A DNA stretch of 16,033 bases from a virus. Its lineage: Duplodnaviria > Heunggongvirae > Uroviricota > Caudoviricetes. Made by a program: the position numbers. The stretch spans positions 1-16,033 of the IMG/VR virus record IMGVR_UViG_2778261151_000016. One strand, 5' to 3'. This document shows, piece by piece, positions 6,001 to 9,000 of the stretch (the stretch's first letter is position 1; every line of letters begins with the position of its first letter).

Positions 6001-9000
6001 CTTTAAAAGCTGTGGTATGGGAAGACATTAAAAAAAACGATGACGAGTTTGTCGCATTGCCTCTTCTTAACGTTTCGCTTTCGGCTGGAAGCGGTAGCTG
6101 CGAGATAGAAGAATCATCAGAGTTCTCTTTGGTTTTCAGAAAGTACTATCTGAAAAAGATGGGGGTAACTGAAAGTTCTGCCAAGCTGGTAAGGGTAACA
6201 GGTCAAAGCATGGAACCAACTCTTCACGATGGCGATGTTGTTGGTGTTAACACACAAGATACCACCATCAGAGATGGTAAAACCTACGCTATTTGCCAGT
6301 CTGATTTGTTGCGAGTAAAAACATTAATCGCCACTCCTACATCGGTGATAATCAGATCAATAAATCGCGAAGAGTACCCGGATGAAGTAATGGATAGAGA
6401 TGAATTTCATAAAACCGTAAGGATTATTGGCAGAGTATTCTGGTCATCGCATAGCTGGTAACCAGTGGCCTGAAGAAACGTTTGGGTGAGGAGGATAGAT
6501 GGCGTTCACTGACCTTGAATATCAAGCGGTCAAAAAAGAAGTTCACCAATTCATTGAAAGCATAAGGCCGCCTGAACATATCCGCAATGAACTGGATATT
6601 GTTTATAGCATCAATGACCAAACGATAGATATCGGCGAACAGCGCCCCGTGTGGCAGGGCAACCCAGGTGAAACAAACATCCTGCCATCAGCAAGAATCA
6701 AGTACATACGTTCTCTGGATAGATGGAAAATCTATTGGATGCGGAAGGATATGAAATGGCATCAGTACAGTACTGAACTTTCGCTGACTGATGCGCTTGA
6801 GCTTGTGCGTGCTGACCCGGATTGCTGCTTCTTCGGATGAGTGAAGAGACATTTTGGTGATGGATGGTCGCAGAAGTGCGGCCTTTAATGTAATCGAAGA
6901 AAAGTAATCCTTGTAAAACTTGATTTGACTGTATTGTCACAAAGAAAGGAATCAACGATCGTTTCTTGGGTCTTGATTTGTTTTGACGATCAAATTAGTA
7001 TTGCCTCATCAACTGTATGAGGCTTTTTTATGCAAACCAAAAGCTACACCATCAAAGCATTTCAGGACTTCTTACAGATGCTTCCTGAGCTTGGTATCGT
7101 CAATGATGCTACAGCCCGCAATCTCCGTGACTCTTCCCTGCGCCTTCTTACTGTTCTTGGGTCGGATTTCACCGATGCCGATATCCGTGATTATAGCGTT
7201 GCCAACTTAGCAAGTTCGTACGCAGACTCAGCAGAAAGCAAACCCTCTGAATCATCTTTGCAGGCATACAAAAGCCGAATGCAAAGTGCTATTGATAAAT
7301 TTATCTCCTACCAGAATGGTGAGATTAATGTGTCAGTTGGTGATGTAAATAAAAAAAAGGAGCGTAAAAAGATGGCACCTAAGAAGAAGGCGGTAGCTGA
7401 CGTACAGGTTGGTGTAAAAACATTTGAACTGCCGATTCCATTGCGCGGAGATCTTATCGTCACCATTGGCAACCTGCCTCGCGACCTGACAAAAGATGAA
7501 GCCAAGCGTATCAGTCTGATTGTGGAATCTTTTGCGATGATTGATGGCGGAACAAAAGAATAAAGCCCCGAGGGAACGGGGCTTTTTGGGTCGGAAATAT
7601 ATCCAGTATTTCCGAAGTGTATGGAGGATTACCTACCGCTACACCCTTGGCAACCGCAAGCCAAGGATAGCGGTTCTCCCAACAAACTACAACCTGTTCG
7701 GGTAAACAGGCTGTATACAAAAACAGGAGAAAAGCTATGGCTCACGATGTTAATCGCGATGACTTCATCTACGAACACGACAAGCCGGTTTATGTGCGCA
7801 GTTACTGCCGCATACGTTTCGGTGAGCTCGAACATGTTCGTCAGCACTTCCGCTCTTATCCGAGCTGCTGAAAATAACTAAATCTCAAACCCGGCTTCCG
7901 CGCCGGGTTTTCTTTGCCTCGCGATCGTCCCCCATATTTAACAGCCGCAAATGCGGTAAACCACGAACCAACACGCCAGCAATACAGCGCCCCCCTTCCA
8001 ATACCGACCAATCCGCAACATTTACAAAAATAAAATACCTTTATTATCCATCACTTATAACTTATTTATCAGAATTCATGAATTAAGTTATTGATCACCG
8101 CTATAACCTAGGTTATCTTTAAGCCATCAGCAGGACGCACTACTCACCAGGGCGGTGAATATACAACGATTCGAATATGAATCTACGGCGCTGACAAAGC
8201 GCAATAACCAAAGTGAACTTTGGGGTGTGGTGAAGGGTTCATGGACGGGAATATGTCGCACGTAAAGCGGCGAGGCCTGCGGGACTATTGCCGAATTGAA
8301 GTAGGCCGAAACAGGTCAAAATGGGTCTCCCACCTACCACACCACCAAAGTTCATCAGGAGGTCTATATGACACGCAGAACTCAGTTCAAAGGCAATTCA
8401 CGTTCTCGTCGTCGTGAGCGTTTAAAGGCAAAGGCATTAGCTAACGGCGTGCTGGCCCGCGAAGAAGCAATAAGTTCAGAAGTATTACACCGCCCTACTC
8501 TAAGCAGAGCGCAGATTCAGGCTAAAGGTACTCACGAAACGCCTGAGCGCATAGAAGACGCTAAGCCAATTAAGTTCATGGCACAGGACGTGATCTGGCA
8601 ACAGAAAGAATACAGACGCAATCTGGAGCGAGCGGCCATTGTGTACGCGAATGAGTTTGGACATAAGCAACCAGAAACTGGTGTATGTCTTCCAAACGTA
8701 GCCATTTACGCGGCAGGCTACCGGAAATCAAAACAACTGACAGCGAGGTAATTATGGATTTAAATAAATTAGAAGCGTTATTAGAAGCATCAGTAAAAAA
8801 TTTTATCTCAGTACTTGATGAAAAAACTGAAGATATTAAGAAGGCAAATATTGTCGAACTTGTAAAAACAAGAGCCAGTACATTTGATCATCTTCCTGAT
8901 GATGTCCGGTCAGCGGCAATTCGCGTATATGTAACGGCACTAAGCAATAGTGAACCACCAATTGATGAAGAATCAAGAGATATTCAGAAAAAACGGTTTG

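What the first reader, a model, noticed from the sequence alone, without database searches (positions are those of the whole stretch)
7590..7916. Structured RNA region and 44-aa ORF boxed between two intrinsic terminators next to OL
Between the ORF-B terminator and a second strong terminator (7888..7916) lie several stable hairpins: GGAAATA-tatccag-TATTTCC (7595..7615 approx), a long imperfect stem CCGCTA...CCTTGGC-aaccgcaa-GCCAAGG...TAGCGG (7634..7672 approx), and CCTGTT-cgggtaa-ACAGG. They are followed by a 44-aa ORF with an AGGAG SD (7737..7871). A short transcription unit bracketed by terminators could be a structured small RNA, a small toxin or regulator, or an antitoxin-like element belonging to the adjacent cargo.
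Basis: seen in the sequence. Interest (0 to 1): 0.5.

Follow-up and report, generated by a model that had tools for sequence, protein, structure and literature searches.

The report
RNA switch guarding a prophage mini-protein
The hairpins are a conserved folded stretch of messenger RNA that hides the ribosome-binding site of a real, previously uncharacterised 44-residue protein gene. This gene is the second of a two-gene cargo cassette that lambdoid prophages, including Shiga-toxin phages, carry between their repressor gene and the left operator.

Summary
Both terminator hairpins, three stem-loops, the AGGAG ribosome-binding site and the 44-aa ORF are present within about 2 nt of the stated coordinates. 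The 151-nt spacer folds far better than shuffled sequence (z = -6.8).

I found no good promoter between the two terminators, so this does not look like a separate transcription unit. It is the intergenic leader plus the second gene of a conserved cassette: a 177-aa protein, a ~170-nt leader and a 44-aa protein. The cassette sits in the rexAB slot of the cI operon and ends at the phage's Timm terminator.

Eleven distinct leader variants from E. coli, Salmonella, Klebsiella, Serratia and other hosts keep four helices through compensatory changes. One helix pairs the SD and start codon with an upstream anti-SD. A further upstream segment resembling the ribosome-binding site can pair with the same anti-SD. 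That makes a two-state translational switch on the + strand.

The ORF is a genuine gene (dN/dS 0.05-0.09), predicted to form an arginine-rich beta-hairpin. It belongs to an unnamed superfamily of more than 100 protein clusters in phages, plasmids and genomic islands. A sister copy is unannotated in VT2-Sakai and in 234 complete E. coli genomes.

The protein's function is unknown. My best guess is a tightly limited toxin or effector paired with the 177-aa protein.

The parts
7030..7563 (+). First gene of the cassette: a 177-aa protein. It has an N-terminal four-helix domain resembling a tyrosine-recombinase core-binding domain, a disordered Lys-rich linker, and a conserved C-terminal beta-beta-alpha domain.
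7562..7588 (+). T1: a hairpin immediately after the stop codon of the 177-aa gene. It has a T-run in this window, so it is probably a leaky terminator or attenuator. On the - strand it has a better T-tail.
   Evidence: Sequence and MFE fold. The hairpin is kept in all relatives, with C-G to U-A compensation in L051, L058 and L018. The T-run is degenerate in type B leaders. The scan calls it as a - strand terminator.
7592..7614 (+). H1: a conserved stem-loop whose sequence varies between relatives. Its role is unknown; it may be an RNA stability or protein-binding element.
   Evidence: At least five different sequences form the same hairpin: GGAAAUA/UAUUUCC, GGAAGUUU/AAACUUCC, GGGGUAUG/CAUAUCCC, GGGAAUA/UAUUCCC and GGUAAACA/UGUUUACC. 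In the alignment 95.5% of cells are paired and two pairs show double changes. It is also retained after the 177-aa homologue in Yersinia phage YP3.
7623..7641 (+). The 'mimic' (anti-anti-SD), GGAG...CCGCUA. It resembles the ribosome-binding region and can pair with the anti-SD.
   Evidence: Constrained folds show this pairing in every variant. Nascent-transcript folds show it forming first. Helix 49-55:108-114 is 93.5% paired. In type B leaders the mimic UACAGGUUAACUGUUA is nearly identical to the RBS UACAGGUUAAUCGUUAUG.
7645..7666 (+). Variable apical hairpin at the tip of the mimic:anti-SD stem.
   Evidence: A hairpin is present at this position in all variants, but its sequence and length are not conserved. 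In L016 it carries a 29-nt duplicate of the ORF's 5' coding sequence.
7667..7679 (+). Anti-SD strand, AUAGCGGUUCUCC. It is shared by the two competing helices.
   Evidence: In the MFE fold it pairs with GGAGAA and GCUAU of the SD/start region. It covaries with the SD: CUCC/GGAG, GGCC/GGUU and UACC/GGUA.
7688..7715 (+). H3: a conserved hairpin enclosed by the anti-SD:SD helix.
   Evidence: 92.9% of cells are paired and three pairs show changes on both sides. Pair 134:152 appears as CG, GC, AU and GU.
7725..7739 (+). Shine-Dalgarno AGGAG and the AUG start codon. Both are sequestered in the closed conformer.
   Evidence: The predicted unpaired probability of the SD core stays near 0.3 from 25 to 45 C.
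7737..7871 (+). Second gene of the cassette: a 44-aa mini-protein, MAHDVNRDDFIYEHDKPVYVRSYCRIRFGELEHVRQHFRSYPSC.
   Evidence: It matches phrog_21154. dN/dS is 0.05-0.09. AF2 predicts a beta-hairpin over residues 19-38 with pLDDT above 90. The superfamily shares the motif V-x-V-x-x-Y-x-R-x-R-F-G-x-x-E-x-V-x-x-H-x-R-S-x-P. There is no Pfam, NCBIfam, PADLOC or PDB relative.
7887..7916 (+). Timm: the intrinsic terminator that ends the immunity (cI) operon, just upstream of OL/pL.
   Evidence: It is 92.5% identical to the feature annotated 'Timm' in mEp234 and HK106. The same terminator follows the small ORF in all relatives.

Best explanation
Region 7590-7916 is the 3' half of a two-gene prophage cargo cassette. 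The cassette sits where lambda carries rexAB: downstream of cI, in the same orientation, and ending at the Timm terminator just before OL/pL and N.

Transcripts that pass the leaky hairpin T1 after the 177-aa gene carry a ~170-nt leader on the + strand. In its more stable 'closed' fold, a 13-nt anti-SD strand (7667-7679) pairs with the Shine-Dalgarno sequence and the first two bases of the AUG (7726-7738). This helix clamps hairpin H3, and translation of the 44-aa gene is off.

An upstream segment (7623-7641) resembles the ribosome-binding region and can pair with the same anti-SD strand. It is transcribed first, so nascent RNA starts in the 'open' fold with the SD free and then has to refold.

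The inferred result is that the arginine-rich beta-hairpin mini-protein is made only in a short window after transcription, or after an unknown trigger. It would therefore stay well below the level of its 177-aa partner.

What is shown: the structure, its covariation, the coding status of the ORF, and the linkage of the cassette.

What is inferred: the direction and kinetics of the switch, read-through of T1, and the roles of the two proteins. I guess that the mini-protein is a potentially harmful effector and that the 177-aa protein, which looks like a DNA-binding protein, is its partner or neutraliser, as in an antitoxin-first operon.
For: Context. The gene order is cI (Peptidase_S24/HTH), DUF3024, the 177-aa gene, the 44-aa gene, a terminator, then N.

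Cassette linkage. The big gene, the ~170-nt spacer and the small ORF travel together in unrelated settings:
- lambdoid cI-N gaps in E. coli, Serratia, Symbiopectobacterium and Yersinia intermedia;
- next to pepN/DinI in Salmonella;
- next to SSB/primase in Klebsiella.
The linkage survives when the big protein has diverged to 40% identity (VT2-Sakai) and 34% identity (Leminorella).

Structure.
- The fold z-score is -6.8.
- RNAalifold finds H1, the mimic:anti-SD helix, the anti-SD:SD helix and H3.
- 93.3% of cells are paired, against 27-48% when partners are slid by 1-3 columns.
- Eight pairs change on both sides, and the covariation score is 0.28 against 0.04-0.11 in the slid controls.
- The SD itself covaries with the anti-SD: GGAG/CUCC, GGUU/GGCC and GGUA/UACC.
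- Cognate SD:anti-SD duplexes average -13.9 kcal/mol, against -9.8 for non-cognate combinations.

Two states. Every variant has both conformers, within about -3 to +9 kcal/mol of each other. Nascent RNA lacking the SD always folds into the mimic:anti-SD hairpin. Findpath barriers to the closed state are 7-17 kcal/mol.

Strand. The core helices contain 13 G-U pairs and 2 A-C pairs, which points to the + strand RNA.

Coding. dN/dS is 0.05-0.09 while dS approaches saturation.

Precedents in lambdoid phages. These are the cIII alternative-structure element, present in this same window, and the Gifsy-1 isrK-orf45 leader (PMC4825925).
Against: - There are no expression data of any kind. Read-through of T1, the 5' end of the mRNA and the effect on translation are all untested.
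- Much of the covariation comes from one deep split between two leader types. Within type B, the cognate versus non-cognate permutation tests are only modest: 24 of 720 for SD:anti-SD and 47 of 720 for mimic:anti-SD.
- The 5' half of the mimic helix is weaker than its 3' half, and the lower part of the closed helix is only partly kept. The whole closed helix is 81.6% paired.
- In the RNAalifold consensus, the mimic 3' half and the SD each pair with a different half of the anti-SD strand at the same time. A static, always-closed structure is therefore possible.
- Family members in distant taxa stand alone, with no 177-aa partner and no significantly structured leader. This weakens the idea of an obligatory toxin-neutraliser pair.
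- The sister ORF in E. coli Sakai is not listed among the Ribo-seq-supported novel small genes. That region may have been excluded from the screen as already annotated.
Confidence: 0.55

Rival explanations
1. The leader is a responsive switch rather than a kinetic one. A trans-acting factor shifts the closed fold to the open fold. Candidates are the arginine-rich mini-protein itself (autoregulation), the 177-aa protein, a host or phage small RNA, or a signal of infection.
For: The two conformers are close in energy in all variants. H1, H3 and the apical hairpin are conserved as shapes with free sequences, as expected for protein-binding hairpins. The Gifsy-1 isrK-orf45 leader is opened by a short RNA acting in trans. 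The mini-protein is a predicted cationic beta-hairpin, a shape known from RNA-binding arginine-rich peptides (the comparison rests on my own knowledge).
Against: No ligand, small RNA or binding site has been identified. There is no Rfam riboswitch or thermometer match. Predicted SD accessibility is flat from 25 to 45 C.
Confidence: 0.17
2. The hairpins are mainly transcript-end and stability elements: tandem terminators, RNase barriers and a bidirectional terminator. Pairing of the SD is incidental, and the small gene is translated constitutively at a low level.
For: T1 is a good terminator on the - strand and in this window also on the + strand. H1 follows T1 directly and persists in phage YP3, where the ORF is absent.
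Against: The SD and anti-SD change together across variants. The mimic copies the RBS in type B leaders. G-U pairs outnumber A-C pairs 13 to 2, which indicates a folded + strand RNA rather than a DNA or minus-strand feature.
Confidence: 0.13
3. It holds that an independent short transcription unit lies between the two terminators and produces a structured small RNA or a dual-function RNA, with its own promoter in or just before the spacer.
For: A weak promoter-like site, TTGCGA-18-AAGAAT (7532-7561, 8/12), would start transcription inside T1. This would be analogous to lambda pLit inside rexA (my own knowledge). There are weak sub-threshold Rfam matches to isrJ and STnc450 over the ORF 3' end plus Timm.
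Against: The Rfam matches are driven by the terminator and lie far below the gathering scores (16 versus 37 bits). The promoter-like site overlaps conserved codons, so its conservation is uninformative. The spacer never occurs intact without the ORF.
Confidence: 0.08
4. This is a type I toxin-antitoxin locus. The 44-aa protein would be the toxin, its mRNA would be held inactive by the leader, and an antisense RNA from the - strand would cover the SD and end at H3 or T1.
For: RBS sequestration by a long structured 5' UTR is typical of hok, tisB, zorO and dinQ mRNAs (my own knowledge). The - strand also folds well (z = -6.2). T1 and H3 score as - strand terminator-like sites.
Against: The protein is hydrophilic with no membrane helix. 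No - strand promoter was found in 7600-7900. The H3 tail is not T-rich in type B leaders. The G-U/A-C asymmetry favours the + strand. Synonymous drift in the ORF would erode an antisense promoter.
Confidence: 0.07

Closest known systems
Lambda cIII mRNA alternative-structure element (Rfam RF01804, Lambda_thermo)
   Same: It is a lambdoid phage mRNA in which two alternative folds decide whether the ribosome-binding site of a small (~54 aa) regulatory protein gene is accessible. A copy lies in this same window at 9751-9809.
   Different: There is no sequence or model similarity. The cIII element spans the start of the coding region and responds to temperature and RNase III (my own knowledge). 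This leader lies wholly upstream, uses a three-strand arrangement (mimic, anti-SD, SD) and shows no predicted temperature response.
Gifsy-1 isrK-orf45-anrP leader (Hershko-Shalev et al. 2016, PMC4825925)
   Same: It is a prophage-encoded structured RNA followed by a ~45-codon ORF. It has two experimentally shown conformers, one translationally silent, with the ORF's RBS held in a helix.
   Different: orf45 is an upstream ORF that couples translation to the downstream anrP gene. Here the 44-aa ORF is the last gene before a terminator and its protein sequence is under strong purifying selection. No isrK model match was found. IsrK starts at its own promoter, and none is evident here.
Lambda rexA-rexB / pLit / Timm arrangement (lysogeny-operon cargo)
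   Same: The position is the same: between cI and OL, co-oriented with cI, ending at Timm. The terminator is homologous to the annotated Timm of mEp234 and HK106. In relatives the same slot holds HicAB, BstA or DUF3024/PDC-S43 defence-type cargo.
   Different: Neither protein has detectable similarity to RexA or RexB. No exclusion phenotype is known.
Type II toxin-antitoxin operons (antitoxin first, toxin second)
   Same: There are two small co-directional genes on mobile elements. The first encodes a protein with an N-terminal DNA-binding-like domain, a flexible linker and a small conserved C-terminal domain. Expression of the second gene is held down.
   Different: The spacer is 173 nt rather than overlapping or coupled genes. 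The mini-protein matches no toxin family. Family members occur alone elsewhere. Toxicity is untested.
RNA phage MS2 maturation-gene leader (translation only on nascent RNA before a long-range SD pairing forms)
   Same: The SD is closed by an upstream complementary sequence in the equilibrium fold, and translation is limited to the folding delay (my own knowledge). Here nascent RNA folds first into a competing hairpin, with a 7-17 kcal/mol barrier to the closed state.
   Different: The genomes and sequences are unrelated. The kinetic behaviour here is predicted, not measured.

Membership tests
Lambdoid immunity-operon terminator Timm | GC-rich hairpin followed by a T-run, placed after the last gene of the cI operon and before OL/pL | tested here: met
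   The hairpin is AAACCCGGC-ttccgc-GCCGGGTTT followed by TTTTCTTT, at 7887-7916. N starts at 8368 and the OL/pL-like site lies around 8091-8119.
Lambdoid immunity-operon terminator Timm | Sequence homology to a terminator annotated as Timm | tested here: met
   Window 7881-7920 is 92.5% identical to the 'Timm' regulatory feature of mEp234 and HK106.
Lambdoid immunity-operon terminator Timm | Terminates pRM/pRE transcripts in vivo | not testable with these tools
   This needs Term-seq or 3'-end mapping in a lysogen.
RBS-sequestering translational leader with alternative folds | SD and start codon base-paired in the stable fold | tested here: met
   UUCUCC 7674-7679 pairs with GGAGAA 7726-7731, and AUAGC 7667-7671 pairs with GCUAU 7734-7738, in the MFE and centroid folds.
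RBS-sequestering translational leader with alternative folds | Pairing conserved through compensatory changes in relatives | tested here: met
   Columns 116:172 and 117:171 change on both sides in 3 and 5 of 11 variants. Overall 93% of cells are paired, against 27-48% in the slid controls.
RBS-sequestering translational leader with alternative folds | A mutually exclusive competing helix that frees the SD | tested here: met
   The mimic:anti-SD helix is found in every variant by constrained and nascent-transcript folding. This is prediction only.
RBS-sequestering translational leader with alternative folds | Measured effect on translation | not testable with these tools
   This needs reporter fusions and toeprinting.
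Rfam Lambda_thermo / isrK / any curated RNA family | Covariance-model match at or above the gathering score | tested here: not met
   There is no match in 7450-8050 above gathering. The best sub-threshold hits (21 bits or less, E of 0.3 or more) are terminator-driven.
Independent small-RNA gene | Own promoter directly upstream | tested here: inconclusive
   The consensus scan found none on the + strand. My own scan found one 8/12 site at 7532-7561, which scores no better than the window's presumed pL.
Independent small-RNA gene | Occurs and is conserved independently of flanking coding genes | tested here: not met
   The leader is always found between the 177-aa-family gene and the mini-protein ORF. 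The only exception is a truncated copy in phage YP3.
Type I toxin-antitoxin | Small hydrophobic or membrane-active toxin | tested here: not met
   The protein is charged and hydrophilic, and is predicted as a beta-hairpin with no helix.
Type I toxin-antitoxin | Antisense RNA gene overlapping the toxin mRNA | tested here: inconclusive
   No - strand promoter-like site lies in the region. The structure carries a + strand signature, with 13 G-U pairs against 2 A-C pairs. There are no transcript data.
Type II toxin-antitoxin | Toxin homologous to a known toxin family | tested here: not met
   There are no Pfam, NCBIfam, PADLOC or PDB matches for the 44-aa protein or its superfamily.
Type II toxin-antitoxin | Upstream partner with a DNA-binding domain plus a separate small C-terminal domain | tested here: inconclusive
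Type II toxin-antitoxin | Toxicity of the second gene, relieved by the first | not testable with these tools
   This needs inducible expression with and without the 177-aa gene.
Tyrosine recombinase (for the 177-aa partner) | Catalytic domain with the R-K-H-R-H/W-Y residues | tested here: not met
   Only the N-terminal core-binding-like domain is present. The protein is 177 aa and has no Phage_integrase hit.
RexAB-type lysogeny-operon cargo | Located between cI and OL and co-transcribed with cI | tested here: met
   Position and orientation are met. Co-transcription is inferred, not shown.
RexAB-type lysogeny-operon cargo | Homology to RexA or RexB | tested here: not met
   No such Pfam hits were found.

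The most novel reading that the evidence does not exclude
The cassette is a new kind of prophage-borne toxin-neutraliser or abortive-infection module. Its effector would be a ~40-residue arginine-rich beta-hairpin from an unnamed superfamily spread across phages, plasmids and genomic islands, possibly binding nucleic acid. Its neutraliser or sensor would be a recombinase-core-binding-domain protein. The three-strand RNA switch would be the safety catch that limits the effector to a pulse per transcript.
Probability: 0.2. Interest if true: 0.7.

Novelty: new member of a known kind. Interest (0 to 1): 0.5.

Why it matters
Three points would matter to people who work on temperate phages and small proteins.

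1. A conserved protein-coding gene goes unannotated in well-studied genomes. In VT2-Sakai (Sp5 of E. coli O157:H7 Sakai) RefSeq annotates an antisense ORF in its place. In the 234 complete E. coli genomes that carry the sister copy, the listed matches have no feature annotated under them.

2. The gene belongs to a superfamily of at least 100 clusters of 30-60-residue proteins. The superfamily has a sharp motif and no Pfam, NCBIfam or PDB relative, and it occurs on phages, conjugative plasmids and islands. It is a clean target for small-protein biology.

3. The gene lies in the one prophage operon that is transcribed during lysogeny. That slot is used by RexAB, HicAB, BstA and similar cargo, so the cassette is a candidate for lysogenic conversion or phage exclusion in Shiga-toxin phages.

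The leader is a compact, naturally varied example of RBS control by strand competition. It can be tested with a handful of point mutations.

Tried and rejected
- Rfam, at gathering threshold over the whole window and at permissive threshold over 7450-8050, found nothing for the leader. Only terminator-driven noise appeared.
- Pfam, NCBIfam, PADLOC and PHROGs gave only unnamed PHROGs for the two cassette proteins.
- A PDB sequence-profile search and a Foldseek search with the hairpin model found no meaningful match, as expected for a 20-residue hairpin.
- RNA thermometer: predicted SD accessibility does not change from 25 to 45 C. Rejected as the primary mechanism.
- Leader peptide (uORF): rejected. 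No gene follows before Timm, and the amino-acid sequence is under purifying selection.
- The overlapping 86-aa ORF 7621-7881 and the - strand ORFs: rejected. The 86-aa frame is broken by stop codons in Salmonella, and third-position changes fit only the 44-aa frame.
- Type III (ToxIN-like) RNA antitoxin and retron ncRNA: considered from the anatomy only. I ran no repeat search. No tandem repeats are apparent, and no nuclease or reverse transcriptase gene is adjacent.
- The species-representative genome scan with the 177-aa family returned only 3 loci, so most diversity came from look-ups in assemblies, viral contigs and metagenomes.
- Literature searches by accession numbers, PHROG ids and topic found no description of this cassette.
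- The Ribo-seq survey of Sakai small genes does not list the sister ORF.
- The 177-aa hypothetical protein next to a plasmid-borne family member is unrelated to the cassette's 177-aa protein.
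Full report
**Observation.**
- T1, the hairpin after the upstream gene: 7562-7585, with a T-run.
- H1: CGGAAATA/TATTTCCG, 7592-7614.
- Long stem: CCGCTA 7636-7641 with TAGCGG 7668-7673, enclosing CCTTGGC/GCCAAGG 7645-7666.
- H3: CCTGTT/AACAGG 7693-7710, extendable to 7688-7715.
- AGGAG 7725-7729, followed by the ATG at 7737.
- A 44-codon ORF ending at 7871.
- A second terminator at 7887-7916.

RNA 7590-7740 folds at -58.4 kcal/mol, against -32.5 +/- 3.8 for shuffles (z = -6.8). In that fold the Shine-Dalgarno sequence and part of the AUG are paired with UUCUCC...AUAGC of 7667-7679.

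**Context.** The window is a lambdoid prophage of E. coli. It is 99-100% identical over this stretch to prophages in strains O39:NM F8704-2 and FDAARGOS_944, and 94.6% identical over the first 1139 bases of the query (7000-8138) to phage SH2026Stx1. On the + strand the order is:
- cI (S24 repressor), 5724-6461;
- a DUF3024 gene, 6499-6840;
- a 177-aa gene, 7030-7563;
- the spacer and the 44-aa ORF;
- the terminator;
- OL/pL;
- N, 8368-8751.

This is the slot where lambda carries rexAB. The second terminator is 92.5% identical to the feature annotated Timm in mEp234 and HK106.

**A conserved two-gene cassette.** At the DNA level this exact spacer and ORF are rare: 6 of 5426 complete E. coli genomes and 3 phage records. 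The unit 'big gene, ~170-nt spacer, small ORF, Timm-like terminator' nevertheless recurs in unrelated settings:
- Klebsiella prophages, next to SSB and a primase;
- Salmonella, next to pepN and dinI;
- Serratia, Symbiopectobacterium and Yersinia intermedia, in cI-N gaps;
- viral and metagenome contigs.

The unit is also present when the big protein has diverged to 34% identity in Leminorella. It is present at 40% identity in VT2-Sakai. There an unannotated 40-aa ORF (MSTYNLNDQFDREVHVNAYERIRHGNLEHVCEHYRSRPHR) follows VT2-Sap23 after a structured 173-nt spacer.

That sister version is in 234 of 5426 complete E. coli genomes, and none of the listed matches has a feature annotated under it. Exceptions exist. 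Phage YP3 keeps only T1, H1 and part of the mimic. Y. pseudotuberculosis prophages and one Citrobacter locus lack the small ORF.

**The ORF is a gene.** Between variants, changes fall on third codon positions. dN/dS is 0.05-0.09 while dS runs to saturation. The overlapping 86-aa frame is interrupted in Salmonella.

An exhaustive HMMER search found 95 representative proteins, mostly of 30-60 aa. A profile search found 123 clusters. They share V-x-V-x-x-Y-x-R-x-R-F-G-x-x-E-x-V-x-x-H-x-R-S-x-P, with Y23, R25, R27, V34, H37 and R39 invariant. Members come from:
- Pseudomonas, Bosea, Polaromonas and Cupriavidus;
- a very abundant phage-like element found in metagenome assemblies;
- Xanthomonas, Klebsiella and Enterobacter plasmids.

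Nearly all members are unannotated or 'hypothetical'. No Pfam, NCBIfam, PADLOC or PDB relative exists. AlphaFold2 with 76 aligned sequences predicts a two-stranded beta-hairpin over residues 19-38 with pLDDT above 90. From the sequence, one face is hydrophobic and the other carries the invariant Arg, Tyr and His residues. Foldseek found nothing specific.

**The leader is a conserved + strand RNA structure.** I collected eleven distinct leaders, which fall into two sequence types of about 55-60% identity.
- RNAalifold recovers H1, a helix between the upstream segment and the 5' half of the anti-SD, a helix between the 3' half of the anti-SD and the SD, and H3.
- On this structure 93.3% of cells pair, against 27-48% when partners are slid by 1-3 columns.
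- Eight pairs change on both sides, and the covariation score is 0.28 against 0.04-0.11.
- The SD itself changes together with its partner: GGAG/CUCC, GGUU/GGCC and GGUA/UACC.
- The full 13-bp closed helix is 81.6% paired.
- The core helices hold 13 G-U pairs against 2 A-C pairs, so the folded molecule is the + strand RNA.
- H1 exists in at least five different sequences that all form the same hairpin.

**Two states.** The anti-SD strand can also pair with an upstream segment, the 'mimic'. In the second leader type this segment is almost a copy of the ribosome-binding region: UACAGGUUAACUGUUA against UACAGGUUAAUCGUUAUG.
- Constrained folding gives both conformers in every variant, with the closed form favoured by about 2-9 kcal/mol. 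In Klebsiella the open form is slightly more stable.
- RNA that ends before the SD always folds into the mimic:anti-SD hairpin.
- The estimated barrier to the closed form is 7-17 kcal/mol.
- Cognate duplexes are more stable than non-cognate ones: SD:anti-SD -13.9 against -9.8 kcal/mol, and mimic:anti-SD -14.9 against -11.6.
- Within one leader type, however, the permutation tests are modest: 24 of 720 and 47 of 720.
- Predicted SD accessibility does not respond to temperature.

The consensus scan finds no + strand promoter. My own scan finds only one 8/12 site, inside the end of the 177-aa gene. T1 has a T-run in E. coli and Salmonella but not in most relatives, although its stem is kept. On the - strand it has the better tail. 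The simplest reading is read-through from the upstream gene, not a unit bracketed by two terminators. No Rfam family matches.

**Mechanism I commit to.** The leader keeps translation of the mini-protein low by sequestering its SD and AUG. The upstream mimic delays this closure on nascent RNA, or allows it to be reversed by an unknown factor. Together with the leaky T1, this would keep the small protein well below the level of the 177-aa protein.

By analogy with antitoxin-first operons, and from the location in the lysogeny operon, I guess that the mini-protein is a potentially harmful effector and the 177-aa protein its partner. This last step is inference only. It is weakened by family members that stand alone without a structured leader.

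**Comparison with known systems.** The closest precedents are:
- the lambda cIII alternative-structure element, present in this window at 9751-9809;
- the Gifsy-1 isrK-orf45 leader, with two experimentally shown conformers;
- the MS2 maturation-gene leader (my own knowledge);
- the rexAB/Timm arrangement.

The leader is a member of none of these by sequence or model. It is a new instance of a known type of control, attached to a protein family that has not been described.

**Verdict.** The finding is a new, unnamed RNA leader and an unnamed mini-protein family working by a familiar principle. I score interest at 0.5. The biological role of the cassette is the open question.

Noticed in passing
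L072 2471-2593 (VT2-Sakai NC_000902.1 9581-9703, - strand); E. coli Sakai NC_002695.2 about 1255735-1255857: A 40-aa member of the mini-protein family is unannotated in VT2-Sakai. RefSeq instead annotates an antisense ORF there (VT2-Sap22, 'Predicted by GeneMark'). The same spacer and ORF occur in 234 of 5426 complete E. coli genomes; the eight listed matches have no feature annotated under them.
   Followed up: partly
window 6499-6840 (+): The DUF3024 gene directly after cI matches the PADLOC candidate single-gene defence system PDC-S43 (E = 7e-42). It is separate cargo: it is absent from the Serratia and Yersinia versions of the cassette.
   Followed up: partly
window 949-3855 (-): The 968-aa replication primase/helicase (Toprim_2 ... 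AAA_25) carries Hint and LAGLIDADG homing-endonuclease domains between its two halves. This looks like an intein.
   Followed up: no
window 13928-14017 (+): There is an Rfam sRNA-Xcc1 match (64.5 bits, above the gathering score) immediately upstream of an AntA/P22 antirepressor-like gene (14029-14682).
   Followed up: no
window 9751-9809 (+): A full-length match to the lambda cIII alternative-structure (thermoregulator) element, 88.5 bits. This confirms the orientation of the pL operon.
   Followed up: no
L016 about 4590-4620 (Symbiopectobacterium sp. RP): The apical hairpin of the leader contains a 29-nt exact duplicate of the small ORF's 5' coding sequence (CATGATGTAAATCGCGACGATTTCATCTA). 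I found no explanation.
   Followed up: no
window 7562-7585, - strand: T1 has a better T-rich tail on the minus strand (GGGGCTTTATTCTTTT, conserved because it overlaps the K-E-stop codons) than on the plus strand in most relatives. It may act as a bidirectional or antisense terminator.
   Followed up: partly
L028 1899-2663 and 3526-3900 (Yersinia pseudotuberculosis prophages): In L028 the cI operon carries a BstA-type abortive-infection gene (KilA-N + BstA_C) before the 174-aa homologue. In all four Y. pseudotuberculosis loci (L028-L031) the leader and mini-protein are replaced by an unrelated ~370-nt segment that ends at the same Timm-type terminator.
   Followed up: no
L074 3992-4090 (Klebsiella IncF plasmid pLAP2_020097): A 32-aa family member (MKPKIVPVVRYTRFRFGRVEHVRKHMRSLPTR) is unannotated. 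It lies convergent to a 736-aa AAA ATPase, beside a cyclase plus small-protein pair, in what looks like a defence island.
   Followed up: partly
window 156-797 (-): An ORF with an IS-type transposase HTH (HTH_Tnp_1) lies at the left end of the window, next to the replication genes.
   Followed up: no
L015 5001-5144 and protein P0003: Decayed copies of the small ORF exist. One has a 1-nt deletion giving a frameshifted 47-aa product, and an E. coli genome carries a 29-aa truncated form.
   Followed up: no
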